NCBI GenBank assembly: GCA_964016885.1
Contig: OZ024742.1
Coordinates: forward strand, 15,252,001-15,316,000
Direction of reading: 5' to 3'
From: Eledone cirrhosa
Taxonomy: Eukaryota
Length of the DNA: 64,000 nt
Part shown: positions 1,288-61,984 of the stretch, in pieces
How positions within the stretch are numbered: position 1 is the first letter of the stretch
How the letters are laid out: every line of letters begins with the position of its first letter
The notes under the pieces: generated by a model
What the model was told of the DNA's origin: nothing
Database searches by the model: none
Seen by the model: the letters and a program-made list of their open reading frames with translations, nothing else
Position numbers and translations under genes: made by a program

Positions 1288-1513
1288 GGAAGCTGGGTGT
1301 CTAGTGGAGAGGACAAACTCCTTCTCAGTGAAGTGACTTTTAACATTGTCAACAAATATTTAAATAGAAAAAGAGCAGGCTTCTATGTTTTGCCTCTCCT
1401 GGATGTATTGATTAGCAATATTATTTAGTTCCTTGATTCTCATTGCAAATTTATGATTTGTTATTTGGGAAATTTCTTTGGAGATAACATTGCGGTCTTG
1501 ATTATATATATAT

Positions 1514-1815
1514 ATAATATGGAAAACGAAGAATCAGTGATGCGTCAGATTACAATTGTTTTTCTGGCGAACAGCTCGGGGTGCCATCTGTTTGCGGATC
1601 AAACCTGATTCTGGATTTGCAAGTTCATCAGATACGTCTAGTGCGAATCCAGAATCAGGTTTGATCCACAAACAGATCGCACCTCGAGCTGTTCGCCAGA
1701 GAAACAATTGTAATATGTAATAAATTGTATTCTGACGCATCACTGATTCTTCGTTTTCCATATTATTATAGTCTGCATACCGGCTATGGATGCATCCAAG
1801 CAACCTTACTACAAA
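1514..1815. mobile_element. Fold-back element with hammerhead remnants (PLE pseudo-LTR-like), inserted between TA tracts
   Basis: Inverted arms 1514-1620 and 1643-1766 with a ~22-nt spacer. CTGATGA lies on the - strand in the spacer. GAAACAATTGTA-ATATGT-AATAAA at 1701-1724. The right arm continues as a tail to TTACTACAA before (TA)n. Confidence 0.65.
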
Positions 1816-1824
1816 TATATACAT

Positions 1825-1864
<40 letters not shown>

Positions 1865-2049
1865 GATAAATCTACCAAGAGTTTACGGTAGTGTCCAATC
1901 CGTATGAAGAACTCAATGTATTCCGGATATCATGGAAAGAAGAGATGTAATGAAAAACCACTTTCGGTGAAAGATAAACGGTATACAGAGTCAAGATAAA
2001 ATATTAAACAAATAATGAATAAACAATTCCTTATATTAAACAAAAAAAG

Positions 2050-2206
2050 TTCATTATTTAACGATCGTTTCTAGGATATATATGTGTGTTAGAATTGGTA
2101 TGCATATTCAACAGATCTATGTACAAAATTATACAAAATTATACAAATTATCAAGATTAAATATACATACCAAACACATATATACGCCGTCTTCAGAAAT
2201 AATGAA
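2050..2206 (-). ncRNA. Type I hammerhead ribozyme motif (minimal helix III), - strand copy
   Basis: Reverse complement of 3735-3891, same 157-nt length. Confidence 0.65.
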
Positions 2207-2993
2207 GTATATTTATTGATAATAACAACAATTCAAAATTTCAGGTCCGTTTGGGAACAAAAATTGACCAATGAAAACACAAAGGGTTAAATGCAGTTCG
2301 GTGTGTGTATATACATGTAAAACCCTTACACATATTTTACAAAAATGTATGTATAATTTGTATACGCATACTAAAAGGATGGATGCAAATACAAAATTTC
2401 AAGGTTAATGTCTCTGTGAGTTTATAATGTACAAATAAGATGTGTATAGGTATATACCTTTCTCTTTGTATTTCTATGTTGTGTGATAGTGTAGTGGTGT
2501 TTGTATGTATATACCGATATATAGATGCGTAGGTATTTGTCTGTATGTATATATGTAAGTCTGTATATATTTATGTGTATATATAGCTATGTATGTGTAT
2601 ATCTGTATGTATATTAGTATGTAAGTGTTGTATATGTGCATGTATGTGTGTAGTTATATATATCTGTGTCTGTATAGTATGTGTGATTATATGTATGTGT
2701 GTGTATATGTACGTGTATATGCATATATATGTGTATATATATGTGTATATATATATATATATATATGGTTGTATATATATATATATATATATATATGTGT
2801 ATGTGTATTTGTATGTATATGTGTATATGTATGTATGTGTGTATATGTATAGGTTTATATATGTGTGTGTATGTATGTTCTTAGTGTGGATGTGTGTATA
2901 TGTATGTATGTGTTTATATATGTGTGTATATTTATGTATGGATGTGTGAGTGTCTATGTGTATATATATGTATGTTTTTTATATATATGTGTA

Positions 2994-3036
<43 letters not shown>

Positions 3037-3734
3037 ATATATGTGTATGTGTGTATATTTATTTTCTTGATATATTTCTTTTTTTCTTTTTTCTTTTTTC
3101 TTTTTTCTTTTTTCTGTTTTTCTTTCTATTCTTTCCTCCTTAATGTTTTATTTATTATATTTTATTTTTTTTATTTGTTTATTTTTCTTAGTTTATAGAT
3201 ACATTTATATTAAGCAGTCTGCTCAGACCGTTGAATACTGACCCCCTCCCCCCCCTCCCACCTAATTTCTGTATCTTGATCTGAAAATGTGTGTGCCAGT
3301 GTTTTATGTGAGTGAATTAATATCCATGTGCTTATGATTTTATATCCACATATATAAATGTGAGTGGGGGTGTGTGTGTGTTTGTATGTTCGTGGTTATG
3401 TGTATATTTATGCATATACGCGCGTGTATGTGTGATTGTACGGATGTGTGTGAGTATGAAAAAATATATTTATATACTTAACTTCATAAGTGTCAATACG
3501 CATCTTATTTGTACATTATAAACTCACAGAGACATTAACCTTGAAATTTTGTATTTGCATCCATCCTTTTAGTATGCGTATACAAATTATACATACATTT
3601 TTATAATATGTGTAAGGGTTTTACATGTATATACACACACCGAACTGCATTTAACCCTTTGTGTTTTCATTGGTCAATTTTTGTTCCCAAACGGACCTGA
3701 AATTTTGAATTGTTGTTATTATCAATAAATATAC

Positions 3735-3891
3735 TTCATTATTTCTGAAGACGGCGTATATATGTGTTTGGTATGTATATTTAATCTTGATAATTTGTAT
3801 AATTTTGTATAATTTTGTACATAGATCTGTTGAATATGCATACCAATTCTAACACACATATATATCCTAGAAACGATCGTTAAATAATGAA
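3735..3891 (+). ncRNA. Type I hammerhead ribozyme motif (minimal helix III, long helix II)
   Basis: Helix I TTCATTATTT(3735-3744)/AAATAATGAA(3882-3891). Core CTGAAGA at 3745-3751 and GAAA at 3870-3873. Helix III AC-GATC-GT with a palindromic loop; cleavage triplet GUU at 3879-3881. Helix II CGGCGTATATATGTGT/ACACATATATATCCTA plus TTGGTATGTATATTTAA/TTGAATATGCATACCAA; the first helix II pair is a C-A mismatch. Confidence 0.65.
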
Positions 3892-3936
3892 CTTTTTTTG
3901 TTTAATATAAGGAATTGTTTATTCATTATTTGTTTA

Positions 3937-3980
<44 letters not shown>

Positions 3981-4305
3981 TTAAATTTTAAAAAAATATA
4001 TATATATACTCACATAAATATATATAGTTATGTGAGTATATATATATACTCACATAACTATAAATCTAGGGACATTCCTTATATTGAAGGTGTCAGTATT
4101 TTACTCACTGTCAGTTGACTGTTCAAATTACCCAAGCTAGAGGTAAAAATGACTCAATAATGGAACATTGTGTTATACTGAAGAGATTGACTAAATGAGA
4201 GTTGTTCTGTGATACCAAATTAGTTTTGAGTTGTAATGTATAATATGGTGAAAAAATAAAGAATATATATATATATAGAATGTTGAGAAGTGATACGTGG
4301 GTTGA

Positions 4306-4469
4306 TATATATATAATAGTGAAGACGAAAAAACAGTAGAAAATGCTAATGAGGTTTTCTCATAGAATAACAGCAAAACATTTACAAAAAAGGAATTCCT
4401 TTTTTGTAAATGTTTTGTTATTCTATGAGAAAACCTCATTAGCATTTTCTACTGTTTTTTCTTCTTCAC

Positions 4470-4482
<13 letters not shown>
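4306..4482. repeat. Spacerless ~175-bp palindrome in a TA tract
   Basis: Centre AAAAAAGGAA|TTCCTTTTTT at 4395/4396; arms differ by one 3-nt indel and one substitution. Confidence 0.95.
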
Positions 4483-4895
<413 letters not shown>

Positions 4896-5050
4896 CAAAT
4901 GAATGAGTTAGGAGCCCAATGGCTGAGCTCGCTCAGCCAGATGTGTGTGTTTGTGTGTGTCCCGACTCATTCATATAACTATACTCTACTACCCCAAGTA
5001 TTGAGTACTCTGGTGAGTAATGGTCTAACCAGTTTCTAACTGAATTCATC

Positions 5051-5095
<45 letters not shown>

Positions 5096-5981
5096 CGCTT
5101 TTGAATTTGTTTTGTGAGATTTCTTATCTGAAAACATGTGTTGAAACAGATATTGTTATACTTTGGGATAGTCATGTGTTTTTATTGGCAACATGACCCT
5201 CCCAAAGTAAAACAATATATATATATACATGGTTTAATTGTTAGTTTATTAGCAAGTCTATGATTAGCTACTTCTGTATTACAGATCTGATAGTTTCTCG
5301 GCAAAGCAGAAACGGTTTATTTTCAGAATGTTTAGATATTTTATAAGTTGTTGGAACAGATGTTTTAACTACAAGATGCTCCTTCATATTGTTAAACACT
5401 TAAGTGAGAAATGAGAGTGGTGCATGTTGTCAGCCAGGAAGTCTGAGGCAGTTATGTACCATGTAGGGGATCAACACAAATGGTGTAGTCAAGTTTGAAC
5501 TCTTTATCATATGGCCAGTATTTTGTATCTCTATATACCATCAATTTTCATCACTTTCCATACCATACCATCATCAAGGTGACCACCACCATCATCATCA
5601 TCACTACTGTCATCACTACCTGTATAACATTATCTTTATTTTCTTCATGACTGGTATTGTTATTCATAATTTCAAATGTATGCTTTTGCATGTCATTTTT
5701 TTCTTTTTACTATTATATTTTAAAAGTTACTAACCCTTTCTCTGTTGCTTTCTCTATCCTACCATTAGAAATTGTCTAATGAATATATGCAGATAGAATA
5801 CCATATTAGGAAACTTTATTTGTTTGACATTTTTTATTGAACTATTTTAAACATGTTTCCTTTCTAAAATGCTAGTTACTGTGAAATCCTTCAGTAATGG
5901 GGTTAATTTAATCAACTAAGTGCTTTTACCCCATAATTTCTGACCATGTGTCTATGTTAGAAACAATTATTATTATCATCA

Positions 5982-6225
5982 TTAACTCTTTAGTTACCAG
6001 TCCAACTAAAACCAGTTCTGGTTCTATGAAATAAAATCAAGCATTTTAAAGTTTTCCTATTTAAATTAAAATCTTCCAACATAATCTTATATAAGAACCT
6101 TATATTAAGCTACTACCTTAGTAATGAAATAATTAATAATTTTAGTAAATCCCTCAAAATTCTTAATTAATTAATTAATTCAAATAGAGTTTATTTCATT
6201 AGAAATGCTGCCATCAAAGGGTTAA
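5982..6225. mobile_element. piggyBac-type MITE family B (reverse orientation relative to 989-1287)
   Basis: TTAA-CTCTTT...AAAGGG-TTAA ends; internal sequence is reverse-complement-like to 989-1287 and 22508-22768. Confidence 0.6.
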
Positions 6226-6226
6226 A

Positions 6227-6335
6227 AGGACGGTTGCTTGACAGTCTTGTTAGTGTTGGATAAAATTCCTTATGATAATTGGTTATGTTCAAAGTTTAAA
6301 TCTTGTTGACATCAACTTCACCTTTCATCCATAAT
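6227..6335 (+). mobile_element. 5' half of a decayed tRNA-derived SINE, split by the 20-bp satellite
   Basis: AGTTTAAATCTTGTTGACATCAACTTCACCTTTCATCC aligns to the intact-copy motif AGTTCAAATCCCGCCGAGGTTAACTTTGCCTTTCATCC. Confidence 0.7.
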
Positions 6336-9300
6336 CAATGAGATAAAGTACCAATCTATGAGATAAAGAACCAACCAGTGAGATAAAGTACTAATCAGTG
6401 AGATATAGTACCAATCTATGAGATATAGTACCAATCTATGAGATATAGTACCAATCTATGAGATAAAGAACCAATCAGTGAGATAAAGTACCAATCAGTG
6501 AGATATAGTACCAATTAGTGAGGTAAAGTACCAATCTATGAGATAAAGTAGCAATCAGTGAGATATAGTACCAATCTATGAGATATAGTACCAATCTATG
6601 AGATAAAATACCAATTAGTGAGATATAGTACCAATCTATGAGATATAACACCAATCAATGAGATATAGTACCAATCAATGAGATATAGTACCAATCTATG
6701 AGATATTATACCATTCAGTGAGATATAGTACCAGTCTATGAGATATAGTACCAATCTATGAGATATAGTACCAATCAGTGAGTTATAGTACCAATCAGTG
6801 AGATATAGTACCAATCTATGAGATAAAATACCAATTAGTGAGATATAGTACCAATCTATGAGATATAGCACCAATCAATGAGATATAGTACCAATCTATG
6901 AGATATTGTACCAATCAGTGAGATATAGTACCAGTCTATGCGATATAGTACCAATCTATGAGATATAGTACCAATCAGTGAGTTATAGTACCAATCAGTG
7001 AGATATAGTACCAATCTATGAGATAAAGTACCAATCAGTGAGATGAAGTACCAATCTATGAGATAAAGTACCAATCTATGAGATATAGTACCAATCTATG
7101 AGATATAGTACCAATCTATGAGATATAGTACCAATCTATGAGATAAAGTACCAATCTGTGAGATAAAGTACCAATCTATGAGATAAAGTACCAATCAGTG
7201 AGATAAAGTACCAATCTATGAGATATAGTACAATCAATGAGATAGTACCAATCAGTGAGATATAGTACCAATCTATGAGATATAGAACCAATCTATGAGA
7301 TATAGTACCAGTCTATGAGATATAGTACCAGTCTATGAGATAAAGTACCAATCTATGAGATATAGTACCAATCAATTAGATAGTACCAATCAGTGAGATA
7401 TAGTACCAATCAGTGAGATATAGTACCAATCTATGAGATATAGTACCAATCAATGAGATAAAGTAGCAATCAGTGAGATAAAGTACCAATTGGTGAGATA
7501 TAGTACCAATTAGTGAGTTATAGTACCAATCTCTGAGATATAGTACGAATCAGTGAGATATAGTACCAATCTATGAGATATAGTACCAATAAGTGAGATA
7601 TAGTACCAATCTATGAGATATAGTACCAATCAGTGAGATAAAGTACTAATCAGTGAGATATAGTACCAATCAGTGAGTTATAGCACCAATCAGTGAGTTA
7701 TAGTACCAATCTCTGAGATATAGTACCAATCAGTGAGATCCAGTACCAATCTATGAGATATAGTACCAATCAGTGAGATATAGTACCAATCTATGAGATA
7801 TAGTACCAATCTATGAGATATAGTACCAATCTATGAGATATAGTACCAATCTATGAAATATAGTATCAATCTATGAAATATAGTACCAATCAGTGAGATA
7901 TAGTACCGACCTATGAGATATAGTAACAATCTATGAGATAAAGTACCAATCAATGAGATAGAGTACCAATCAGTGAGATAAAGTACCAATCAGCGAGATA
8001 CAGTACCAATTTATGAGATAAAGTACCAATCTATGAGATATAGTACCAATCTATGAAATAAAGTAGCAATCTATGAGATATAGTACCAATCTATGAGATA
8101 TAGTACCAATCAGTAAGATATAGTACCAATCAGTGAGATATAGTACCAATCAATGAGATATAGTACCAATCTATGAGATATAGTACCAATCAGTGAGATA
8201 TAGTACAAATCTATGAGATATAGTACCAATATATGAGTCAAAGTACCAACCTATGAGATATAATACCAATCTATGAGTTAAAGTACCAATCTATGAGATA
8301 TGGTACCAATCTATGAGATAAAGTACCAATCAGTGAGATAAAGTACCAATCAGTGAGATATAGTATCAATCTATGAGATATAGTATCAATCTATGAGATA
8401 TAGTACCAATCTATGAGATATAGTACCAATCAGTGAGATATAGTACCAATCTATGAGATATAGTATCAATCTATGAGATATAGTACAAATCTATGAGATA
8501 TAGTACCAATCTATGAGATAAAGTACCAATCTATGAGATAAAGTACTAATCTATGAGATATGGTACCAATCTATGAGATATGGTACCAATCTATGAGATA
8601 AAGTACCAATCAGTGAGATATAGCACCAATCAGTGAGATATAGCCCCAATCTATGAGATATAGTACCAATCAGTGAGATATAGTGCCAATCATTGAGATA
8701 TAGTACCAATCAATGAAATAAAGTACCAATCAGCGAGATAAAGTACCAATCTATGAGATATAGTACCAATCTATGAAATAAAGTACCAATCTATGAGATA
8801 TAGTACCAATCTATGAGATATAGTATCTATTAGTGAGATATAGTACCAATCTATGAGATATAGTACTAATATATGAGATAAAGTACCAATCTATGAGATA
8901 TAGTACCAATCTATGAGATATAATACCAATCTATGAGTTAAAGTACCAATCTATGAGATATAGTACCAATCTATGAGTTAAAGTACCACTCTATCAGATA
9001 TAGTACCAATCAGTTAGATAAAGTACCAATCTATGAGATAAAGTACCAATCTATGAGATAATGTACCAATCTATGAGAATAGTACCAATCTATCAGAGAT
9101 GGTACCAATCTATGAGTTAAAGTACCAATCTATGAGATGTACCAATCTATGAGATATAGTACCAATCTATGAGTTATAGTACTAATCAGTGAGTTATAGT
9201 ACTAATCAGTGAGATATAGTACTAATCAGTGAGATGTAGTACCAATCAGTGAGATATAGTACCAATCAGTGAGATATAGTACCAATCTATGAGATATAGT

Positions 9301-12300
9301 ACCAATCTATGAGATAAAGTACCCAGCAGTGAGATATAGTTCCAATCAGTGAGTTATAGTACCAATTAGTGTGATCTAGTACCAATTAGTGTGATCTAGT
9401 ACCAATCTATGAGATCTAGTACCAATCAGTGAAATATAGTACCAGTCTATGAGATATAGTACCAATCTATGAGATATAGTACCAATGTATGAGATATAGT
9501 TCCAATCTTTGAGATATAGTACCAATCTATGAGATAAAGTACCAATCTATGAGATATAGTGCCAATCTATGAGATAAAGTACTAATCTATGAGATATAGT
9601 ACCAATCTGAGATAAGCTACCAATCATGCGATATAGTACCAATCAGTGAGATATAGTACCAATCAGTGAGATAAAGTCCCAATCTATGAGATATAGTACC
9701 AATCTATGAGATAAAGTACCAATCTATGAGATATAGTACCAATCTATGAGATATAGCACCAATCTATGAGATATAGCACCAATCTATTAGATATAGTACC
9801 AATCTGAGATATAGTACCAATCTTTGAGATATAGTACCAATCCATGAGATAAAGTCCCAATCTATGCTATATAGTACCAATCTATGAGATATAGTACCAA
9901 TCTATTAGATAAAGTATCAATCTATGAGATATAGTACCAATCAGTGAGATATAGTACCAATCTATGAAATAAAGTACTAATCTATGAGATATAGTATCAA
10001 TCTATGAGATATAGTACCAATCAGTGAGATATAGTACCAATTCATAAGATAGTACTAATCTATGACATATAGTACCAATCAATGAGATATAGTACTAATC
10101 TATGACATATAGTACCAATCAGTGAAATAATGTACCAATCAGCGAGATAAAGTACCAATCAGTGAGATAAAGTATCAATCAGTGAGATAAAGTACCAATC
10201 AGTGAGATAAAGTACCAATCAGTGAAATATAGTACCAGTCTATGAGATATAGTACCAATCTATGAGATATAGTACCAATGTATGAGATATAGTTCCAATC
10301 TTTGAGATATAGTACCAATCTATGAGATAAAGTACCAATCTATGAGATAAAGTACCAATCTATGAGATAAAGTACCAATCTATGAGATATAGTACCAATC
10401 TAAGAGATATAGTACTAATCTGAGATATAGTACCAATCTATGAGTTAAAGTACCAATCTATGAGATTATGTACCAATCAGTGAGATAAAGTACCAACCAG
10501 TGAGATATAGTTCCAATCAGTGAGTTATAGTACCAATCAGTGTGATCTAGTACCAATCAGTGTGATCTAGTACCAATCTATGAGATATAGTACCAATCAG
10601 TGAGATATAGTACCAATCTATGAGATATAGTACCAATCTATGAGATATAGTACCAATCTGAGATATAGTACCAATCTATGAGATATAGTACCAATCTATG
10701 AGATATAATACCAATCTATGAGATATAGTACCAATCTATGAGATATAGTACCAATCTATGAGATATAGTACCAATCTATGAGATATAATACCAATCTATG
10801 AGATATAGTACCAATCTATGAGATATAGTACCAATCTATGAGATAAAGTACTAATCTATGAGATATAGTACCAATCTATGAGATCAAGTACCAATCTATG
10901 AGATATAGTACCAATCTATGATATAGTACCAATCTATGATATAGTACCAATCTATGAGATATAGTACCAATCTATGAGATTAAGTACCAATCTATGAGAT
11001 ATAGTACCAATCTATGAGATATAGTACCAATCTATGAGATATAGCACCAATCTATTAGATATAGTACCAATCTATGAGATATAGTAGCAATCTGTGAGAT
11101 ATAGTACTAATCAGTGAGATATAGTACTAATTAGTGAGATATAGTACTAATCTATGAGATATAGTACCAGTCTATGAGTTAAAGTACCAATCTATGAGAT
11201 AGAGTACCAATCTATGAGATATACCACCAATCTATGGGATAAAGTACTAATCTATGAGATATAGTACCAATCTATGAGATATAGTACCAATCTATGAGAT
11301 ATAGTACCAATCAGTGAGATATAGTACCAATCTATGAGATATAGTACCAATCTATGAGATATAGTACCAATCTATGAGATATACTACCAATCTATGGTAT
11401 AAAGTACTAATCTATGAGATATAGTACCAATCTATGAGATAAAGTACCAATCTATGAGATATAGTACCAATCTATGAGATATAGTACCAATCTATGAGAT
11501 ATAGTACCAATCTATGAGATATAGTACCAATCTATGAGATATAGTACCAATCTATGAGATATAGTACCAATCTATGAGATAAAGTACTAATCTATGAGAT
11601 ATAGTACCAATCTGAGATAAGCTACCAATCATGCGATATAGTACCAATCAGTAAGATATAGTACCAATCAGTGAGATAAAGTCCCAATCTATGAGATATA
11701 GTACCAATCTATGAGATATAGTACCAATCTATGAGATATAGTACCAATCATTGAGATATAGTACCAATCCATGACATATAGTACCAATCAATGAGATATA
11801 GTACCAGTATATGAGATATAGTACCAGTATATGAGATATAGTACCTATCTATGAGGTATAGTACCAATCTATGAATTAAAGTACCAATCTATGCGATATA
11901 GTACCAATCAGTGAGATAAAGTACCAATCAGTGAGATAAAGTACCAATCAGTGAGATAAAGTACCAATCAGTGAGATAAAGTACCAATCTATGAGATATA
12001 GTACCACTCAATGAGATATAGTACCAATCTATGAGATAAAGTACCAATCTATGAGATATAGTACCAATCTATGAGTTAAAGTACCAATCTATGAGTTAAA
12101 GTACCAATCTATGAGATATAGTACCAATCAGTTAGATAAAGTACCAATCAGTGAGATATGGTACCAATCTATGAGTTAAAGTACCAATCTATTAGATATA
12201 GTACCAATCTATGAGATAAAGTACTAATCTATGATATATAGTACCAATCTATGAGATATAGTACCAATCTATGAGATAAAGTACCAATCTATGAGATATA

Positions 12301-15300
12301 GTACCAATCTATGAGATATTGTACCAATCTATGAGATATAGTACCAATCTATGAGATATAGTGCCAATCTATGAGATAAAGAACTAATCTATGAGATATA
12401 GTACCAATCTGAGATAAGCTACCAATCATGCGATATAGTACAAATCAGTGAGATATAGTACCAATCAGTGAGATAAAGTCCCAATCAATGAGATACAGTA
12501 TCAGTATATGAGATATAGTACCAATCTATGAGGTATAGTACCAATCTATGAGTTAAAGTACCAATCTATGCGATATAGTACCAATCTATAAGATAAAGTA
12601 CCAATCAGTGAGTTAAAGTACCTATCAGTGAGATAAAGTACCAATCTATGAGATATAGTACCAATCAATGAGATATAGTACCAATCTATGAGATAAAGTA
12701 CCATTCTATGAGATATAGTACCAATATATGAGATATAGTACTAATCAGTGAGATATAGTATCAATCTATGAGATATAGTACCAATCAGTGAGTTATAGTA
12801 CCAATCTATGAGATATAGTACCAATCAGTAAGATATAGTACCAATCAGTGAGATATAGTACCAATCTATGAGATAAAGTTCCAATCTATGAGATATAGTA
12901 CCAATCTATGAGATAAAGTACCAATCAGTGAGATATAGCACCAATCAGTGAGATATAGTACCAATCCATGAGGTAAAGTACCAATCTATGAGATATAGTA
13001 CCAATGTATGCGATATAGTACCAATCAGTGAGATATAGTACCAATCTATGAGATATAGTACCAATCTATGAGATATAGTACCAATCTATGAGATAAAGTA
13101 CCAATCTATGAGATAAAGTACCAATCTATGAGATATAGTACCAATCAGTGAGATATAGTACCAATCTATGAGATAAAGTACCAATCTATGAGATATAGTA
13201 CCAATCTATGAGATATAGTACCAATCTATGAGATATAGTATCACTCTATGAGATATAGTACCAATCAGTGAGATAATGTACCAATCAGTGAGATAAAGTA
13301 CCAATCAGTGAGATAAAGTACCAATCAGTGAGATAAAGTACCAATCTATGAGATATAGTACCAATCTATGAGATATAGTATCAATCTATGAGATATAGTA
13401 CCAATCTATGAGATAAAGTACCAATCTATGAGATAAAGTACCAATCTATGAGATAAAGTACCAATCTATGAGATAAAGTACCAATCTATGAGATATAGTA
13501 CCAATCTATGAGATATAGTATCAATCTATGAGATAAAGTACCAATCTATGAGATAAAGTACCAATCTATGAGATAAAGTACCAATCTATGAGATATAGTA
13601 CCAATCTATGAGATATAGTACCAATCTATGAGATATAGTATCACTCTATGAGATATAGTACCAATCAGTGAGATAATGTACCAATCAGTGAGATAAAGTA
13701 CCAATCAGTGAGATAAAGTACCAATCAGTGAGATAAAGTACCAATCTATGAGATATAGTACCAATCTATGAGATATAGTATCAATCTGAGATATAGTACC
13801 AATCTATGAGATAAAGTACCAATCTATGAGATAAAGTACCAATCTATGAGATAAAGTACCAATCTATGAGATAAAGTACCAATCTATGAGATAAAGTACC
13901 AATCTGTGAGATAAAGTACCAATCTATGAGATAAAGTACCAATCAGTGAGATAAAGTACCAATCTATGAGATATAGTACAATCAATGAGATAGTACCAAT
14001 CAGTGAGATATAGTACCAATCTATGAGATATAGAACCAATCTATGAGATATAGTACCAATCTATGAAATAAAGTACCAATCTATGAGATATAGTACCAAT
14101 CTATGAGATATAGTATCTATTAGTGAGATATAGTACCAATCTATGAGATATAGTACTAATATATGAGATAAAGTACCAATCTATGAGATATAGTACCAAT
14201 CTATGAGATATAATACCAATCTATGAGTTAAAGTACCAATCTATGAGATATAGTACCAATCTATGAGTTAAAGTACCACTCTATGAGATATAGTACCAAT
14301 CAGTTAGATAAAGTACCAATCTATGAGATAAAGTACCAATCTATGAGATAATGTACCAATCTATGAGAATAGTACCAATCTATCAGAGATGGTACCAATC
14401 TATGAGTTAAAGTACCAATCTATGAGATGTACCAATCTATGAGATATAGTACCAATCTATGAGTTATAGTACTAATCAGTGAGATATAGTACTAATCAGT
14501 GAGATGTAGTACCAATCAGTGAGATATAGTACCAATCAGTGAGATATAGTACCAATCTATGAGATATAGTACCAATCTATGAGATAAAGTACCCAGCAGT
14601 GAGATATAGTTCCAATCAGTGAGTTATAGTACCAATTAGTGTGATCTAGTACCAATTAGTGTGATCTAGTACCAATCTATGAGATCTAGTACCAATCAGT
14701 GAAATATAGTACCAGTCTATGAGATATAGTACCAATCTATGAGATATAGTACCAATGTATGAGATATAGTTCCAATCTTTGAGATATAGTACCAATCTAT
14801 GAGATAAAGTACCAATCTATGAGATATAGTGCCAATCTATGAGATAAAGTACTAATCTATGAGATATAGTACCAATCTGAGATAAGCTACCAATCATGCG
14901 ATATAGTACCAATCAGTGAGATATAGTACCAATCAGTGAGATAAAGTCCCAATCTATGAGATATAGTACCAATCTATGAGATAAAGTACCAATCTATGAG
15001 ATATAGTACCAATCTATGAGATATAGCACCAATCTATGAGATATAGCACCAATCTATTAGATATAGTACCAATCTGAGATATAGTACCAATCTTTGAGAT
15101 ATAGTACCAATCCATGAGATAAAGTCCCAATCTATGCTATATAGTACCAATCTATGAGATATAGTACCAATCTATTAGATAAAGTATCAATCTATGAGAT
15201 ATAGTACCAATCAGTGAGATATAGTACCAATCTATGAAATAAAGTACTAATCTATGAGATATAGTATCAATCTATGAGATATAGTACCAATCAGTGAGAT

Positions 15301-18300
15301 ATAGTACCAATTCATAAGATAGTACTAATCTATGACATATAGTACCAATCAATGAGATATAGTACTAATCTATGACATATAGTACCAATCAGTGAAATAA
15401 TGTACCAATCAGCGAGATAAAGTACCAATCAGTGAGATAAAGTATCAATCAGTGAGATAAAGTACCAATCAGTGAGATAAAGTACCAATCAGTGAAATAT
15501 AGTACCAGTCTATGAGATATAGTACCAATCTATGAGATATAGTACCAATGTATGAGATATAGTTCCAATCTTTGAGATATAGTACCAATCTATGAGATAA
15601 AGTACCAATCTATGAGATAAAGTACCAATCTATGAGATAAAGTACCAATCTATGAGATATAGTACCAATCTAAGAGATATAGTACTAATCTGAGATATAG
15701 TACCAATCTATGAGTTAAAGTACCAATCTATGAGATTATGTACCAATCAGTGAGATAAAGTACCAACCAGTGAGATATAGTTCCAATCAGTGAGTTATAG
15801 TACCAATCAGTGTGATCTAGTACCAATCAGTGTGATCTAGTACCAATCTATGAGATATAGTACCAATCAGTGAGATATAGTACCAATCTATGAGATATAG
15901 TACCAATCTATGAGATATAGTACCAATCTGAGATATAGTACCAATCTATGAGATATAGTACCAATCTATGAGATATAATACCAATCTATGAGATATAGTA
16001 CCAATCTATGAGATATAGTACCAATCTATGAGATATAATACCAATCTATGAGATATAGTACCAATCTATGAGATATAGTACCAATCTATGAGATATAGTA
16101 CCAATCTATGAGATAAAGTACTAATCTATGAGATATAGTACCAATCTATGAGATCAAGTACGAATCTATGAGATATAGTACCAATCTATGATATAGTACC
16201 AATCTATGATATAGTACCAATCTATGAGATATAGTACCAATCTATGAGATTAAGTACCAATCTATGAGATATAGTACCAATCTATGAGATATAGTACCAA
16301 TCTATGAGATATAGCACCAATCTATTAGATATAGTACCAATCTATGAGATATAGTAGCAATCTGTGAGATATAGTACTAATCAGTGAGATATAGTACTAA
16401 TTAGTGAGATATAGTACTAATCTATGAGATATAGTACCAGTCTATGAGTTAAAGTACCAATCTATGAGATAGGGTACCAATCTATGAGATATACCACCAA
16501 TCTATGGGATAAAGTACTAATCTATGAGATATAGTACCAATCTATGAGATATAGTACCAATCTATGAGATATAGTACCAATCAGTGAGATATAGTACCAA
16601 TCTATGAGATATAGTACCAATCTATGAGATATAGTACCAATCTATGAGATATAGTACCAATCTATGAGATATACTACCAATCTATGGTATAAAGTACTAA
16701 TCTATGAGATATAGTACCAATCTATGAGATAAAGTACCAATCTATGAGATATAGTACCAATCTATGAGATATAGTACCAATCTATGAGATATAGTACCAA
16801 TCTATGAGATATAGTACCAATCTATGAGATATAGTACCAATCTATGAGATATAGTACCAATCTATGAGATAAAGTACTAATCTATGAGATATAGTACCAA
16901 TCTGAGATAAGCTACCAATCATGCGATATAGTACCAATCAGTAAGATATAGTACCAATCAGTGAGATAAAGTCCCAATCTATGAGATATAGTACCAATCT
17001 ATGAGATATAGTACCAATCTATGAGATATAGTACCAATCATTGAGATATAGTACCAATCCATGACATATAGTACCAATCAATGAGATATAGTACCAGTAT
17101 ATGAGATATAGTACCTATCTATGAGGTATAGTACCAATCTATGAATTAAAGTACCAATCTATGCGATATAGTACCAATCAGTGAGATAAAGTACCAATCA
17201 GTGAGATAAAGTACCAATCAGTGAGATAAAGTACCAATCAGTGAGATAAAGTACCAATCTATGAGATATAGTACCACTCAATGAGATATAGTACCAATCT
17301 ATGAGATAAAGTACCAATCTATGAGATATAGTACCAATCTATGAGTTAAAGTACCAATCTATGAGTTAAAGTACCAATCTATGAGATATAGTACCAATCA
17401 GTTAGATAAAGTACCAATCAGTGAGATATGGTACCAATCTATGAGTTAAAGTACCAATCTATTAGATATAGTACCAATCTATGAGATAAAGTACTAATCT
17501 ATGATATATAGTACCAATCTATGAGATATAGTACCAATCTATGAGATAAAGTACCAATCTATGAGATATAGTACCAATCTATGAGATATTGTACCAATCT
17601 ATGAGATATAGTACCAATCTATGAGATATAGTGCCAATCTATGAGATAAAGAACTAATCTATGAGATATAGTACCAATCTGAGATAAGCTACCAATCATG
17701 CGATATAGTACAAATCAGTGAGATATAGTACCAATCAGTGAGATAAAGTCCCAATCAATGAGATACAGTATCAGTATATGAGATATAGTACCAATCTATG
17801 AGGTATAGTACCAATCTATGAGTTAAAGTACCAATCTATGCGATATAGTACCAATCTATAAGATAAAGTACCAATCAGTGAGTTAAAGTACCTATCAGTG
17901 AGATAAAGTACCAATCTATGAGATATAGTACCAATCAATGAGATATAGTACCAATCTATGAGATAAAGTACCATTCTATGAGATATAGTACCAATATATG
18001 AGATATAGTACTAATCAGTGAGATATAGTATCAATCTATGAGATATAGTACCAATCAGTGAGTTATAGTACCAATCTATGAGATATAGTACCAATCAGTA
18101 AGATATAGTACCAATCAGTGAGATATAGTACCAATCTATGAGATAAAGTTCCAATCTATGAGATATAGTACCAATCTATGAGATAAAGTACCAATCAGTG
18201 AGATATAGCACCAATCAGTGAGATATAGTACCAATCCATGAGGTAAAGTACCAATCTATGAGATATAGTACCAATGTATGCGATATAGTACCAATCAGTG

Positions 18301-19338
18301 AGATATAGTACCAATCTATGAGATATAGTACCAATCTATGAGATATAGTACCAATCTATGAGATAAAGTACCAATCTATGAGATAAAGTACCAATCTATG
18401 AGATATAGTACCAATCAGTGAGATATAGTACCAATCTATGAGATAAAGTACCAATCTATGAGATATAGTACCAATCTATGAGATATAGTACCAATCTATG
18501 AGATATAGTATCACTCTATGAGATATAGTACCAATCAGTGAGATAATGTACCAATCAGTGAGATAAAGTACCAATCAGTGAGATAAAGTACCAATCAGTG
18601 AGATAAAGTACCAATCTATGAGATATAGTACCAATCTATGAGATATAGTATCAATCTATGAGATATAGTACCAATCTATGAGATAAAGTACCAATCTATG
18701 AGATAAAGTACCAATCTATGAGATAAAGTACCAATCTATGAGATAAAGTACCAATCTATGAGATATAGTACCAATCTATGAGATATAGTATCAATCTATG
18801 AGATAAAGTACCAATCTATGAGATAAAGTACCAATCTATGAGATAAAGTACCAATCTATGAGATATAGTACCAATCTATGAGATATAGTACCAATCTATG
18901 AGATATAGTATCACTCTATGAGATATAGTACCAATCAGTGAGATAATGTACCAATCAGTGAGATAAAGTACCAATCAGTGAGATAAAGTACCAATCAGTG
19001 AGATAAAGTACCAATCTATGAGATATAGTACCAATCTATGAGATATAGTATCAATCTGAGATATAGTACCAATCTATGAGATAAAGTACCAATCTATGAG
19101 ATAAAGTACCAATCTATGAGATAAAGTACCAATCTATGAGATAAAGTACCAATCTATGAGATAAAGTACCAATCTATGAGATAAAGTACCAATCTATGAG
19201 ATATAGTATCAATCTATGAGATATAGTACCAATCTATGAGATAAAGTACCAATCTATGAGATAAAGTACCAATCTATGAGATAAAGTACCAATCTATGAG
19301 ATAAAGTACCAATCTATGAGATATAGTACCAATCTATG
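6333..19338. repeat. 20-bp satellite, consensus GAGATA(T/A)AGTACCAATC(TA/AG)T, ~650 units
   Basis: Direct tandem periodicity of 20 nt over 13 kb. Confidence 0.99.
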
Positions 19339-19405
19339 GACTCAATTTATCCCACTCCCCAAATTGCTGGCCTTGTGCCTAAATTAGAAACTGTTATTAT
19401 TATTA
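19339..19405 (+). mobile_element. 3' half of the SINE split by the 20-bp satellite
   Basis: CACTCCCCAAATTGCTGGCCTTGTGCCTAAATTAGAAACTGTTATTATTATT matches the SINE tails at 19555-19600 and 25490-25540. Confidence 0.8.
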
Positions 19406-20783: not shown

Positions 20784-20858
20784 ATGCCTGGAGTGATGGG
20801 TTTAGTTGCTGGACAAGTTCAACAGCAGATGTCTATGGATCAGGCACAAACTAACATG
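20784..20858 (+). CDS. Internal coding exon (phase 0/0), MPGVMGLVAGQVQQQMSMDQAQTNM; gene unidentified
   Basis: Pyrimidine-rich tract + TATCAG acceptor; ATG|GTAAGC donor; 75 nt; only one of three frames is open; GC content higher than flanks. Confidence 0.75.
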
Positions 20859-26422: not shown

Positions 26423-26920
26423 TACTGTTTAACGGTTGAGCGCTTACAAAATAGATGTAACTAATTTTGATTTCATATTCTGGTCATTACAATTTTGTTT
26501 CTAATTAGGCATGATCACTACACAATCCCATTTCCTATATCTAAGACTGAATGTATGCAAGAAATAATAATAATAATAATAATTGTTGTTGTTGCTATTC
26601 AGACTTTCACAAATGAATGGCTCTGTTTTGTTCTAGTTGCTATCATTGTTGTTGTTTTTTTTGTTATCACTGTTGCTGTTGTTTATTTTGTTGTCTATGT
26701 TTGCAATATTTTCTTTGGTCTTTGAAACTGTATTGTTTAAAGTAACAATATGTCTTTTTTCTCAAATGCTGAAATCCTTCAACATTTGTGCTTTAGTTGA
26801 AGGACTCTCTCTCTCTCTTTGCAATGTATTATTGCTCTGTCTCTTTTTAGATGCAGTATGCATATTTTTTATATCCATACTGTTGTTATCCTCCACCTCT
26901 TCTTCTTGAAACCTTTAACA

Positions 26921-27024
26921 TAATTGTTTCTACTTTTGGCACAAGGCCAGCAATTACCCAGTACATTACTGGTACTTTATTTTATCAACCCCGTAAGGAT
27001 GAAAGGCAAAGTTAACCTCGACGG
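26921..27024 (-). mobile_element. 5'-truncated SINE with TSD GAAACCTTTAACATAAT
   Basis: Reverse complement of the SINE 3' half; TSD at 26908-26924 and 27025-27041. Confidence 0.9.
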
Positions 27025-27058
27025 GAAACCTTTAACATAATGAAACAATATTATATCT

Positions 27059-27238
27059 GATTGGCAGTATCGGTAGAGGGTCGGACGCCATGCTTTGATG
27101 CATAGTTACGGCCCTTGCCATTTTGAGTTCAAATCCCGCCGAGGTTAACTTTGCCTTTCATCCTTACGGGGTCGATAAAATAAAGTACCAGTAATGCACT
27201 GGGTAATTGCTGGTCTTGTGCCAAAAGTCGAAACAATT
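27059..27238 (+). mobile_element. Young tRNA-derived SINE with TSD ATTATATCT
   Basis: A/B boxes; TSD at 27050-27058 and 27236-27244. Confidence 0.9.
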
Positions 27239-27364
27239 ATATCTATATAACATAAGCATCAACAGAGAAATATAGATATTATAAAATGTGGAACTTCTAT
27301 GGCTCCTGCTAGTAATTACCATTATTATTTAACCTTTCTTGTGTGGGATGTCTATTGACTGCAA

Positions 27365-28097: not shown

Positions 28098-28283
28098 GGC
28101 GGTGGATTGGCAGTATCGGTAGAGGGTCGGACGCCATGCTTTGACGCATAGAGTTACGTCCCTTGCCATTCTGAGTTCAAAGCCCGCCAAGGTTAACTTT
28201 GCCTTTCATCCTCATGGGGTCGATGAAATAAAGTACCAGTAATGCACTGGGTAATTGCTGGCCTTGTGCCAAAAGTAGAAACA
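28098..28283 (+). mobile_element. Young full-length tRNA-derived SINE with 19-bp TSD ATTATTTCTACCACAATAG
   Basis: GGCAGTATCGGTAGAG A-box and GAGTTCAAAGCC B-box; TSD at 28079-28097 and 28284-28302. Confidence 0.92.
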
Positions 28284-28290
28284 ATTATTT

Positions 28291-31200
28291 CTACCACAAT
28301 AGCTCTACCACTTTACCATTCTACCACTTTACCCCTGTACCACTTTACAGCTCTACCACTTTACCATTCTACCACTTTACAACTCTACCACTTTACAGCT
28401 CTACCACTTTACAACTCTACCACTTTACAACTCTACCACTTTACAACTCTACCACTTTACCATTCTACCACGCTACTACTTTACCATTCTACCACTTTAC
28501 CATTCTACCACTTTACCACTTTACAACTCTACCACTTTACCATTCTACCACTCTACCATTCTATCACTCTACCACTTTACCATTCTACCACTTTACCATT
28601 CTACCACTTTACCATTCTACCACTTTACCATTCTACCACTTTAGCATTCTACCACTCAACCACTTTACCATTCTACCACTTTACCATACTACCACCCTAC
28701 CACTTTACCACCCTACCATTCTACCACTCTACCACTGTATCTTTGTACCACTGTACCACTTTAACATTCTACCACTCTACCACTTTACCATTCTACTCCT
28801 CTACCACTCTACCACTCTACCACTTTACAACTCTACCACTTTACCATTCTACCACTCTACCATTCTATCACTCTACCACTTTACCATTCTACCACTTTAC
28901 CATTCTACCACTCTACCACTTTACAACTCTACCACTTTACTACCACTTTACAACTCTACCACTTTACCACTCTACCACTTTACAACTCTACCACTTTACC
29001 ACTCTACCACTTGGCCATTTTACCACTTGCCCATTCTACCACTTTACCACTCTACCATTGTACCACTTTACCACTCTACCACTTTACCATACTACCACCC
29101 TACCACTTTACCACCCTACCATTCTACCACTCTACCACTGTATCTTTGTACCACTGTACCACTTTAACATTCTACCACTCTACCACTTTACCATTCTACC
29201 CCTCTACCACCCTACCACTTAACCACCCTACCACTTTACAACTCTACCACTTTACTTCCCTACCACTTTACAACTCTACCACTTTACTACCCTACCACTT
29301 TACAACTCTACTACTTTACTACCCTACCACTTTACTACCCTACCACTTAACCACTCTACCACTTTACAACTCTACCACTTTACAACTCTACCACTTTACT
29401 ACCCTACCACTTTACAACTCTACCACTTTACCACTCTACCACTTTACTACCCTACCACTTTACCACTCTACCACTTTAGTACCTTACCACTTTACCACTC
29501 TACCACTTTACTACCCTACCACTTTACAACTCTACCACTTTACTACCCTACCACTTTACCACTCTACCACTTTAGTACCTTACCACTTTACCACTCTACC
29601 ACTTTACTACCCTACCACTTTACAACTCTACCACTTTACCACTCTACCACTTTACTACCCTACCATTTTACAACTCTACCACTTTACTACCCTACCACTT
29701 TACCACTCTACCACTTTAGTACCTTACCACTTTACCACTCTACCACTTTACTACCCTACCACTTTACAACTCTACCACTTTACTACCCTACCACTTTAGT
29801 ACCTTACCACTTTACCACTCTACCACTTTACTACCCTACCACTTTACTACCCTACCTTTTTACCACTCTACCACTTTACTACCCTACCACTTTACCACTC
29901 TACCACTTTACTACCCTACCACTTTACCACTCTACCACTTTACTACCCTACCACTTTACTACCCTACCACTTTACCTCTCTACCACTTTACAACTCTACC
30001 ACTTTACTTCCATACCACTTTACAACTCTACCACTTTACTACCCTACCACTTTACCACTCTACCACTTTACTACCCTACCACTTTACCACCCTACCACTT
30101 TACCACTCTACCACTTTACTACCCTACAACTTTACAACTCTACCACTTTACCACTCTACTACCCTACCACTTTACTACCCTACCACTTTACTACCCTACC
30201 ACTTAACCACTCTACAACTTTACAACTCTACCACTTTACTACCCTACCACTTTACAACTCTACCACTTTACTACCCTACCACTTTACCACTCTACCACCC
30301 TACAATTTTACTACCCTACCACTTTACTACCCTACCACTTTACCTCTACCACTTTACAACTCTACCACTTTACTACCCTACCACTTTACCACCCTACCAC
30401 TTTACAACTCTACCACTTTACTACCCTACCTTTTACCTCTCTACCACTTTACAACTCTAGCACTTGCCCATTCTACCACTTGCCCATTCTACCACTTTAC
30501 CATTCTACCACTCTACCACTTTACCACTCTACCACTTTACTACTGTACCACTTTACCATTCTACCACCCTACCACTTTACCATTCTACCACTCTACCACT
30601 ATCTTTGTACCACTGTACCACTTTAACATTCTACTACACTACCATTCTACCACTCTACCACTCTACCATTCTACTACTCTACCACTGTACCACCCTACCA
30701 CTCTACCACTTTACAACTCTACCACTTTACTTCCCTACCACTTTACTTCCCTACCACTTTACAACTCTACCACTTTACAACTCTACCACTTTACCACCCT
30801 ACCACTTTACAACTCTACCACTTTACTACCCTACCTTTTACCACTCTACCACTTGCCCATTCTACCACTTGCCCATTCTACCACATTACCACTCTACCAC
30901 TCTACCACTGTACCACTTTACCATTCTACCACCCTACCATTTAACCACTCTACCACTTTACTACCCTACCACTTTACTACCCTACCACTTTATCTCTCTA
31001 CCACTTTACCTCTCAACCACTTTACCACTCTACCACTTTACTACCCCACCACTTTACCACTCTACCACTCTACCACTTTACTACCCTACCATTTTACCAC
31101 TCTACCACTTTACTACCCTACCACTTTACCACTCTACCACTTTACTACCCTACCACTTTACCACTCTACCACTTTACTACCCTACCACTTTACTACCCTA

Positions 31201-34200: not shown

Positions 34201-34420
34201 CCCTACCACTTTACTACCCTACCACTTTACTACCCTACCACTTTACCACCCTACCACTTTACTACCCTACCACTTTACAACTCTACCACTTTACTACCCT
34301 ACCACTTTACAACTCTACCACTTTACTACCCTACCACTTTACAACTCTACCACTTTACTACCCTACCACTTTACAACTCTACCACTTTACTACCCTACCG
34401 CTTTACCACTCAACCACTCT
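28291..34420. repeat. 8-bp/16-bp satellite (TACCACTT/TACCACTC/TACTACCC), with 1.3-1.4 kb higher-order blocks
   Basis: Octamer periodicity; variant marker CTAGCACTTGCCCATTC at ~30457, ~31892 and ~33213. Confidence 0.98.
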
Positions 34421-59437: not shown

Positions 59438-59526
59438 CTCTTTCTCTCCAACAAAGCATCTGTCTTGAATACAAAATGTAAAATTAAAACCTTTTTGCCC
59501 TTGTTATCCATCTTGTGTGTTTGCAG

Positions 59527-59629
59527 GCCAAAATCCAGCAACCTGTGAAAACCAAGGATATGCAAGCCATGGGGAATGAACCTCCTGCAAAACGTCAACA
59601 AGTGATGGATGTTCGACAACCCTTGCTTG
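59527..59629 (+). CDS. Internal coding exon [34 protein letters not shown](G); gene unidentified
   Basis: TCTTGTGTGTTTGCAG acceptor. Open in phase 0, compatible with exon 20784-20858. PPAKRQ NLS-like motif. Donor CTTG|GTTTGT; an alternative donor CAA|GTGATG at ~59602 is not excluded. Confidence 0.7.
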
Positions 59630-60500: not shown

Positions 60501-60531
60501 GTGTATATATATATATATACATATATATATT

Positions 60532-60620
60532 TATTAAAATAACAGATTAAAGTTTAAGCAAAGAATCGCTGCTTTCACTCTTGCGATTCTTTGCTTAAAC
60601 TTTAATCTGTTATTTTAATA
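60532..60620. repeat. Perfect 38-bp inverted repeat with 13-nt spacer
   Basis: TATTAAAATAACAGATTAAAGTTTAAGCAAAGAATCGC (60532-60569) and its exact reverse complement (60583-60620). Confidence 0.95.
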
Positions 60621-60710
60621 TATATTTGCTCTAGGGTTCTTATATATTTGATATATATTTATCCTTATCGAGCCTTCTCTGGATTTTAGTCTTCAAATTT
60701 TTATTATTAC

Positions 60711-60745
<35 letters not shown>

Positions 60746-61744: not shown

Positions 61745-61984
61745 TGATAATGATATCAAATGAAACTCAATGTTTCCATTTAGACATTTTATTTACAATG
61801 TCTTCATTTGTGCTGACATATTGCTTTTGTGATCTAACAGACCTCACATTTCTGATCCTCTCAGTGTGTATATATATATATATATATATATTTGCTCTAT
61901 GGTTCTTGTATATTTGATATATATATTTATCCTTATCGAGCCCTCTCTGGATTTTAGTCTTCAAATTTATTATTATTACTATAT

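What the first reader, a model, noticed from the sequence alone, without database searches (positions are those of the whole stretch)
1860..3945. 450-bp inverted-repeat element carrying a hammerhead ribozyme in each arm
Seen: arms 1996-2447 and 3496-3945 are near-identical. Each holds a complete type I hammerhead layout: a perfect 10-bp helix I, CUGAAGA, an unusually long (~118 nt) helix II whose upper stem has two G-U-compatible differences, GAAAC-GAUC-GU and a GUU cleavage triplet. Known: minimal hammerheads with a palindromic tetraloop in helix III occur in pseudo-LTRs of Penelope-like elements and in non-LTR retrozymes, cleave mainly as dimers, and PLEs often carry inverted pLTRs. Inference: a recently mobile, non-coding, (TA)n-targeting ribozyme retroelement in which either strand's transcript contains one ribozyme. 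Read-through would also fold into a ~450-bp dsRNA, a potential ADAR/siRNA substrate that could mask the ribozyme. Caveat: the C-A mismatch at the base of helix II may impair activity.
Basis: partly seen in the sequence, partly recalled or inferred. Interest (0 to 1): 0.85.

Follow-up and report, generated by a model that had tools for sequence, protein, structure and literature searches.

The report
Penelope-type insertion with oversized hammerhead
This 2.1-kb stretch holds two mirror-image copies of the end of an abundant repeat, likely left by one Penelope-like jumping-gene insertion, and each copy carries a sequence laid out as a self-cutting hammerhead RNA with an unusually long side arm that the standard RNA-family library misses; whether it cuts is untested.

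Summary
In detail: arms 1996-2447 and 3496-3945 are 99.1% identical, and each holds a full type I hammerhead layout (0 of 5,000 shuffles match; no Rfam hit). Reads from four public runs show a high-copy dispersed family ending in (TA)n at two sites 134 nt apart (1996 and 1862). The inversion junction (2447/2448, 12-bp palindrome) is essentially absent from other copies. That is the published anatomy of a Penelope-like (PLE) insertion: inverted truncated copy, one-sided tail, (TA)n target. The mirror arrangement is therefore a by-product of this insertion, not a two-strand design, and read-through would mask the ribozyme. No RT/endonuclease ORF was found, so PLE membership is unproven. The unusual parts: a 118-nt helix II domain shared across the family, a 134-nt tail (30-40 typical), and a downstream 10-nt repeat predicted to strip helix I about 30 nt after it forms. 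Family variants fit the fold (cleavage triplet GUU/GUA; 6 of 6 listed helix II changes tolerated), but no two-sided covariation or cleavage was shown. The scan already reported inverted-arm PLE insertions with hammerheads in other genomes. Verdict: new variant of a known kind, interest 0.4.

The parts
1831..1861 (.). left (TA)n target microsatellite
   Evidence: sequence
1862..1995 (-). 134-nt tail present only on the left copy; ends in a 14-nt mini-hairpin (1862-1875); 1862 is the family's long terminus
   Evidence: loose ends to (TA)n at 1862/1863 in X20 (793 reads), X1 (17+8 contigs), X6 (1 contig)
1996..2447 (-). left arm: inverted, 5'-truncated copy of the element end
   Evidence: 99.1% to the right arm; 1996 also joined to (TA)n in one X5 contig
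2050..2206 (-). hammerhead layout, left copy (core CUGAAGA 2196-2190, predicted cut after 2060)
2010..2019 (-). downstream repeat of the helix I 5' strand, left copy
2448..2459 (.). 12-bp perfect palindrome at the inversion junction; the only palindrome of >=12 bp with >=4 G/C in the element
   Evidence: junction nearly uncovered in X20 reads
2448..3495 (+). 1,048-nt low-complexity, non-coding upstream part of the plus-strand copy (3' UTR or captured DNA)
   Evidence: only low-complexity open frames; no Pfam hit for the 2 longest; first 90 nt are multi-copy at about 85% in X1
3496..3945 (+). right arm, ending at the short terminus
3735..3891 (+). hammerhead layout, right copy: helix I 3735-3744/3882-3891, core 3745-3751, helix II domain 3752-3869, GAAA 3870-3873, helix III with palindromic 8-mer 3873-3880, predicted cut after 3881
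3922..3931 (+). exact repeat of the helix I 5' strand, predicted to capture the helix I 3' strand in a hairpin
3946..3971 (.). right (TA)n target microsatellite

Best explanation
The locus holds two head-to-head copies of the non-coding end of an abundant (TA)n-flanked repeat and is most likely one insertion made by Penelope-like-element (PLE) machinery, its hammerhead predicted to cut only as a dimer or with protein help and only briefly. Shown: a 1.5-kb plus-strand copy (2448-3945), an adjacent inverted shorter copy with a 134-nt extension, (TA)n on both sides, two family termini 64 and 198 nt past the predicted cut, and a junction not shared with other copies. Inferred: a PLE endonuclease nicked (TA)n, reverse transcription began at the two preferred internal sites (giving the short end and the tailed end), and the mirror arm arose during this event. 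Predicted: in the source element's RNA the 2-bp helix III is too weak for a monomer, so two copies pair through the palindromic 8-mer. Helix I is available only until the repeat at 3922-3931 is transcribed. At this locus read-through RNA from either flank folds into a 450-bp duplex that hides the ribozyme, so this copy is likely inert. Whether the source is an autonomous PLE with a long 3' UTR or a non-autonomous derivative is open.
For: Termini: 793 X20 reads, 25 X1 contigs and 1 X6 contig run from 1862/1863 into TA-rich sequence; one X5 contig ends at 1996 in (TA)n. Abundance: 8,257 of 12.47 million X20 reads and 1,860 of 17.1 million X1 contigs lie on 691 bp. X1 depth falls from about 385,000 at the 5' core to about 30,000 at 2258-2329 and 3,500 at 2426-2449, as 5' truncation would give. 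Junction: X20 depth drops from 235 to under 1 across 2449/2450, and an X5 contig leaves the left arm and continues with sequence resembling the right arm's upstream side. The published PLE anatomy matches: inverted 5'-truncated copy, one-sided tail, (TA)n bias (PMC8557442); palindromes at the inverted junction, head-to-head orientation (PMC3846280); tail equals the distance between two RT start sites, and the hammerhead is protein-assisted (PMC11167929). Hammerhead: none of the 40 listed variant rows falls in the 18 core/helix III positions or the 20 helix I positions; position 17 varies U to A in 1,001 of 2,753 X20 reads, an allowed triplet; 6 of 6 listed substitutions in helix II are unpaired (3) or keep the pair by a one-sided change (3), P about 0.04 under a simple null. 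Folding: palindrome duplex -10.0 kcal/mol; monomer helix III about 5% populated; helix I 86-98% with the 3' end at 3891-3915 and 1-2% from 3925 on.
Against: No RT or GIY-YIG sequence in the locus and no protein relative for the tail frame, so the mobilising element is unidentified. None of five short element motifs hit the Naiad, Chlamys or Hydra consensus files of PMC8557442; a sixth gave one 12-13-nt match. The tail is 134 nt against the 30-40 nt reported. One search showed only 40 of 116 variant rows and 19 of 1,936 pieces, so rarer core changes or junction-spanning contigs could be hidden; X1 depth does not drop at the junction (3,500 to 6,700). No two-sided compensatory change was seen, and two of the three pair-keeping changes sit at CpG sites, where decay would give the same transitions. 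X20 is a RAD library, so its depths are enzyme-biased. The lowest-energy monomer fold mispairs the core with the cleavage triplet (-47.2 against -42.8 to -44.0). The downstream hairpin alone is not significantly stable (16 of 200 shuffles as good).
Confidence: 0.72

Rival explanations
1. Same PLE-type origin, but the hammerhead is a dead relic throughout the family: the long helix II and the downstream repeat arose by local duplication in AT-rich DNA, and the family spreads without cleavage.
For: C-A at the base of helix II where G-C is typical (PMC4209133). The monomer misfolds and helix I is displaced in equilibrium. In the anole PLE, hammerhead mutants did not affect insertion in vitro (PMC11167929). 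No two-sided covariation.
Against: Unpaired bases at the helix II base are common in Hydra-clade hammerheads, and a U-U there is reported in natural hammerheads and retains some cleavage. This question is partly independent of the origin question.
Confidence: 0.3
2. One reading: a stand-alone non-coding ribozyme retroelement (retrozyme-like) whose inverted arms are a family design giving each strand a ribozyme.
For: No ORF in 2.1 kb; high copy number; animal retrozymes are proposed PLE derivatives and include monomers (10.64898/2026.07.22.740005).
Against: The junction is private to this locus and copies continue collinearly. No tandem units in the window. Retrozymes are defined as 150-450-bp tandem repeats with canonical hammerheads (PMC7229834). 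The antisense arm precedes and covers the ribozyme on both strands.
Confidence: 0.08
3. A DNA transposon or foldback element with 450-bp terminal inverted repeats inserted at TA, the hammerhead being a passenger or chance.
For: Long near-perfect inverted arms; TA flanks; a roughly 55-bp piece (2262-2320) is shared with another abundant repeat (1,293, 566 and 1,013 loose-end reads).
Against: Ends are asymmetric (134-nt tail on one side); coverage decays inward in X1; the junction is not shared; chance layout 0 of 5,000.
Confidence: 0.05
4. The inverted arm is an assembly fold-back artefact or a later local inversion-duplication of an older single copy.
For: No listed read or contig bridges the junction; the best run holds only 73% of the sampled words, so the locus itself was not seen independently.
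Against: The arms differ at 3 sites, end at two different natural family termini, each in (TA)n, and are separated by 1,048 nt of non-mirrored sequence; the layout matches published PLE insertions.
Confidence: 0.07

Closest known systems
Endonuclease-bearing Penelope-like element insertions (Penelope/Poseidon, Neptune, Hydra, Naiad): PMC8557442, PMC3846280
   Same: Inverted 5'-truncated copy next to the 5' end, head-to-head orientation, palindrome at the junction, tail on one side only, (TA)n target, hammerhead near the 3' end.
   Different: No ORF in this copy; tail 134 nt instead of 30-40; at least 1.3 kb of non-coding sequence upstream of the hammerhead; clade not determined.
PLE hammerheads (minimal and Hydra-clade type I): PMC4209133; File S2 of PMC8557442
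   Same: Type I topology, CUGANGA and GAAA boxes, short palindromic helix III suited to dimer cleavage, unpaired base(s) at the start of helix II.
   Different: Helix II domain of 118 nt. Reported helix II is 6-8 bp in PMC4209133; in the File S2 table stems II are 3-9 nt per strand, with the longest loop about 35 nt in a row marked as deviating. Helix I is 10 bp with a downstream competing repeat.
Poseidon element of the green anole (PAc): PMC11167929
   Same: Two element ends downstream of the hammerhead whose spacing is the tail; AT-rich target; hammerhead inactive without help (here predicted).
   Different: In PAc the ORF starts at helix II; here that frame is closed and no ORF start could be identified.
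Animal non-LTR retrozymes: PMC7229834; 10.64898/2026.07.22.740005
   Same: Non-coding, AT-rich, type I hammerhead, high copy.
   Different: No tandem array seen, unit longer than 450 bp, non-canonical helix II, PLE-type insertion marks.
Discontinuous Clec2 hammerhead of mammals (as summarised in PMC6155905)
   Same: Core halves separated by a long insertion.
   Different: That one is type III with a very large helix I (150-1500 nt) in a host 3' UTR; here it is type I, helix II, in a mobile repeat.

Membership tests
Penelope-like element (EN+) | ORF with telomerase-like RT and GIY-YIG endonuclease | tested here: not met
   Only low-complexity frames in 1860-3945; no Pfam hit for 4 element frames; tail frame has no relative. 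Expected for a truncated or non-autonomous copy, so membership is not claimed.
Penelope-like element (EN+) | Inverted 5'-truncated copy adjacent to the 5' end, formed per insertion | tested here: met
   junction depth 235 to under 1 in X20; junction palindrome
Penelope-like element (EN+) | Optional one-sided tail (30-40 nt reported) | tested here: inconclusive
   A one-sided extension between two family termini is present but is 134 nt
Penelope-like element (EN+) | Partial-tandem direct pLTRs flanking the ORF | not testable with these tools
   No genome held; no direct repeat of the arm in the window
Penelope-like element (EN+) | Microsatellite (TA)n insertion bias | tested here: met
   Both flanks here; 793 X20 reads and contigs in three other runs
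Type I hammerhead ribozyme | Conserved core CUGANGA, GAAA, NUH in three-helix type I topology | tested here: met
   0 of 5,000 shuffles
Type I hammerhead ribozyme | G10.1-C11.1 closing pair of helix II | tested here: not met
   C-A; a typical rather than absolute feature, mismatches occur in natural examples
Type I hammerhead ribozyme | Covariation of helices among copies | tested here: inconclusive
   6 of 6 listed changes tolerated, all one-sided or unpaired; 76 of 116 rows not shown
Type I hammerhead ribozyme | Site-specific self-cleavage | not testable with these tools
   No RNA run available for the stretch; needs an assay
Non-LTR retrozyme | Tandem 150-450-bp units each with a type I hammerhead | tested here: not met
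   No tandem copy in the window; no head-to-tail joint among the 5 listed; genome-wide arrays not testable
Non-LTR retrozyme | Abundant circular RNA | not testable with these tools
   No RNA holder listed
MITE / foldback DNA transposon | Fixed symmetric terminal inverted repeats shared by copies | tested here: not met
   Asymmetric ends and private junction

The most novel reading that the evidence does not exclude
A class of PLE hammerheads with very long helix II domains, invisible to Rfam and to published descriptors, is abundant in this animal lineage, and in this family a downstream copy of the helix I strand acts as a built-in timer that lets the ribozyme fold only in a roughly 30-nt co-transcriptional window or when the element's RT binds the neighbouring terminal hairpin, coupling cleavage to the choice between two priming sites 134 nt apart.
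Probability: 0.2. Interest if true: 0.65.

Novelty: new variant of a known kind. Interest (0 to 1): 0.4.

Why it matters
The insertion architecture is ordinary for Penelope-like elements. What could matter is the ribozyme variant. Published surveys call a PLE clade hammerhead-positive or hammerhead-negative using descriptors with short helix II (7-17 nt between the boxes for core searches, half-cores noted at 35-50 nt). A family-wide 118-nt helix II shows such surveys can miss whole families, and a second, broken example with a 62-nt domain lies 90 bp away. The role of PLE hammerheads is still open, and a family with a predicted on/off competitor and two mapped ends gives a concrete construct for testing whether cleavage is timed or protein-gated.

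Tried and rejected
Own genome: none held, so copy number, tandem arrays and the autonomous partner could not be mapped. Rfam: nothing relevant, only low-complexity miRNA matches. Metagenome scans: 0 hits for the gapped core pattern; 34 hits for an 18-base pattern, none extending beyond 26 nt and none with a matching helix I, so chance. Tail as ORF start: no protein relative. Host gene: one exon-like frame searched, no hit, so an intronic position is not established. Naiad identity: Naiad_Obim, Ovul, Omin, Esco and Adux consensus ends read by eye show no similarity beyond one 12-13-nt word; the Hydra-1_Obim hammerhead is different. The idea that Naiad 'half-cores' are long-helix-II hammerheads was looked at by eye in Naiad_Esco and Naiad_Ovul and not supported. 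No tRNA gene. A copy-number figure was not derived because the tool's depths are not copy numbers and X20 is RAD-biased. Lunse et al. 2017 on PLE hammerhead variants is not held; only its title was seen, and it may already cover long-helix variants.

Full report
Observation. The inverted repeat is real: 1996-2447 and 3496-3945 align at 99.1% over 452 columns, with two substitutions and one 2-nt indel, none inside the hammerhead, and no other copy in the window. Each arm carries a type I hammerhead layout: a 10-bp helix I, CUGAAGA, a 118-nt helix II domain, GAAAC-GAUC-GU and U17 (3881 on the right arm). A relaxed descriptor found only these two sites in 64 kb on both strands. Of 5,000 shuffles of the arm, 0 gave a 10-bp helix I and 1 gave 5 bp or more. 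The insert folds far better than its shuffles (-41.2 against -19.5 +/- 2.9 kcal/mol, n = 500). Rfam does not see it. The left arm continues for 134 nt (1995 to 1862) beyond the point where the right arm ends, and both ends run into (TA)n.

Setting. The window is AT-rich animal DNA, mostly satellite. Its repeats look to me like those of an octopod cephalopod; that label is recalled and comes from no call. No genome was held. The element has only low-complexity open frames, four element frames have no Pfam match, and the tail frame has no protein relative.

The family. I laid 1850-2540 on 4 of the 22 runs listed: contigs of organisms A, B and C (X1, X5, X6) and raw RAD reads of organism A (X20). 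8,257 of 12.47 million X20 reads, 1,860 of 17.1 million X1 contigs, 48 X5 contigs and 3 X6 contigs lie on it, so it is a high-copy repeat present in at least two organisms; the X6 signal is thin. Position 1862 is a sharp terminus joined to (TA)n in 793 X20 reads, in 17+8 X1 contigs and in one X6 contig. One X5 contig ends at 1996 in (TA)n, the same end as the right arm. X1 depth falls about a hundredfold from the hammerhead towards 2447. X20 depth falls from 235 to under 1 across the junction, and an X5 contig leaves the left arm and continues like the right arm's upstream side. X1 depth does not drop at the junction, because other contigs cover the spacer side, and only 19 of 1,936 pieces were shown; none of those bridges it. 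A 12-bp palindrome sits exactly at the junction, the only such one in the element.

What this matches. PMC8557442 (passages) describes PLE insertions as 5'-truncated, often with an inverted truncated copy at the 5' end, a 30-40-bp tail at one end and (TA)n bias. PMC3846280 (passages) reports palindromes at the inverted junction and head-to-head orientation, and long spacers of captured DNA in one family. PMC11167929 (parts 1-2 of 4) shows that the tail is the distance between two RT start sites downstream of the hammerhead, that the hammerhead cleaves only with the protein, and that cleavage is not needed for insertion in vitro. The locus fits all of this except for tail length and the missing ORF. 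So it works like a PLE insertion, while membership is unproven and the clade is unknown. It is not one of the cephalopod Naiad or Hydra consensus ends in the supplement of PMC8557442 (parts 1, 2, 24 and 25 of 59 and motif searches). PMC13282606 (passages) lists 31 recently active PLE families in Octopus vulgaris and does not mention ribozymes.

Is the hammerhead under constraint? One search showed 40 of 116 variant rows, apparently those of highest share. None falls in the core, helix III or helix I, although the 3' half has the deepest coverage. Position 17 is A instead of U in 1,001 of 2,753 X20 reads, 66 X1 contigs and 1 X5 contig; GUA is an allowed triplet (established knowledge). Six rows fall in helix II: three are unpaired in the predicted fold and three keep the pair (two G-U to A-U at the base in the unbulged register, one U-A to U-G). 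The chance of 6 of 6 under a uniform null is about 0.04. This is weak: no two-sided change was seen and two sites are CpG. The long apex is a family trait, since in X1 and X5 its depth is similar to that of the 5' core. It is also the most variable part: 987 X20 reads diverge at 2087, and 65 reads skip or replace 84-88 nt of it. Those 65 occur only in raw reads and could be hairpin-deletion artefacts. The C-A at the base of helix II departs from the usual G-C (PMC4209133, parts 1-2 of 4), but U-U and other mismatches there are common in the Hydra-clade table and are reported in natural hammerheads (PMC3088659 and PMC7229834, passages).

How it would work (predicted). As a monomer the core mispairs with the cleavage triplet: the hammerhead fold is 3-4 kcal/mol above the minimum and helix III is about 5% populated. 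The GUA variant narrows the gap to 1.8, and the palindromic 8-mer gives a -10 kcal/mol dimer duplex. An exact repeat of the helix I 5' strand lies at 3922-3931 (about 0.002 by composition; 1 occurrence in 17.6 kb of other non-satellite DNA). Helix I is 86-98% formed while the 3' end is at 3891-3915 and 1-2% formed from 3925 on. This suggests a short co-transcriptional window, protein gating, or product release. The hairpin on its own is not significantly stable, so it may be an accident of local duplication. At this locus the arms point outward, so RNA coming from either flank makes the antisense arm first; in the folded plus-strand RNA all 157 hammerhead nucleotides pair with it (arm duplex -714 kcal/mol). 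The two hammerheads cannot dimerise in one transcript.

Novelty. Searches for hammerhead with octopus, cephalopod, 'long stem II' or 'elongated helix II' found no description of a PLE hammerhead with a helix II of this size; PMC6962438 (passages) only counts 235 Rfam hammerheads in giant squid. The known long-insert case is the Clec2 type III ribozyme with a large helix I (PMC6155905, passages). Lunse et al. 2017, the most relevant survey of PLE hammerhead variants, was not available (title seen in the references of PMC10085705), and supplements of the 2026 bioRxiv preprint (part 1 of 5 and passages read) were not seen; either could lower the novelty. Earlier notes of this scan report inverted-arm PLE insertions with hammerheads in other genomes, none with a long helix II.

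Verdict. Real feature; ordinary PLE-type insertion architecture; unusual hammerhead variant with modest comparative support and no activity data. New variant of a known kind, interest 0.4.

Noticed in passing
window 1509-1770: A 260-bp fold-back element in TA-rich flanks holds pieces of a second, unrelated hammerhead: CUGAUGA on the minus strand at 1631 and GAAAC-AAUU-GUA on the plus strand at 1701, with a 62-nt helix II region between the equivalent positions and A-A at its base. Neither strand is complete. The plus-strand insert folds as one hairpin (z = -2.6), the minus-strand one does not (z = 0.7).
   Followed up: partly
window 4305-4483, 60527-60625, 4023-4062: Further short palindromic elements sitting in (TA)n and ending in pyrimidine-rich sequence; they look like stump insertions of other (TA)n-targeting families.
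   Followed up: no
window about 60640-60715 and 61915-61980: Two near-identical short (about 65-75 bp) TA-flanked pieces without inversion.
   Followed up: no
window 2262-2320 (and the mirror near 3621-3679): A roughly 55-bp piece of the arm is shared with another abundant repeat (loose ends in 566-1,293 X20 reads). It contains TTAACCCT, a motif found 11 times in the window on either strand and recalled as piggyBac-like.
   Followed up: partly
window 2009-2026 (minus strand): Family variants around the competing repeat: a 9-nt insertion in 505 of 978 X20 reads adds a second near-copy of it, and a change at 2009 would pair with the GUA variant; linkage unknown.
   Followed up: no
window 1862-1875: The long terminus ends in a perfect 14-nt mini-hairpin, a candidate priming or resolution signal.
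   Followed up: no
window about 20784-20858 and 59520-59620: Two plus-strand exon-like stretches with splice-like ends and Gln/Met-rich frames; no relative found for the one searched.
   Followed up: partly
window about 6340-19340, 28280-34400, 34400-59430: Three large satellite arrays (20-bp unit; short CT-rich unit; CA-rich unit) fill most of the window.
   Followed up: no
window 26920-27240: Two copies of a common SINE-like repeat in head-to-head orientation.
   Followed up: no
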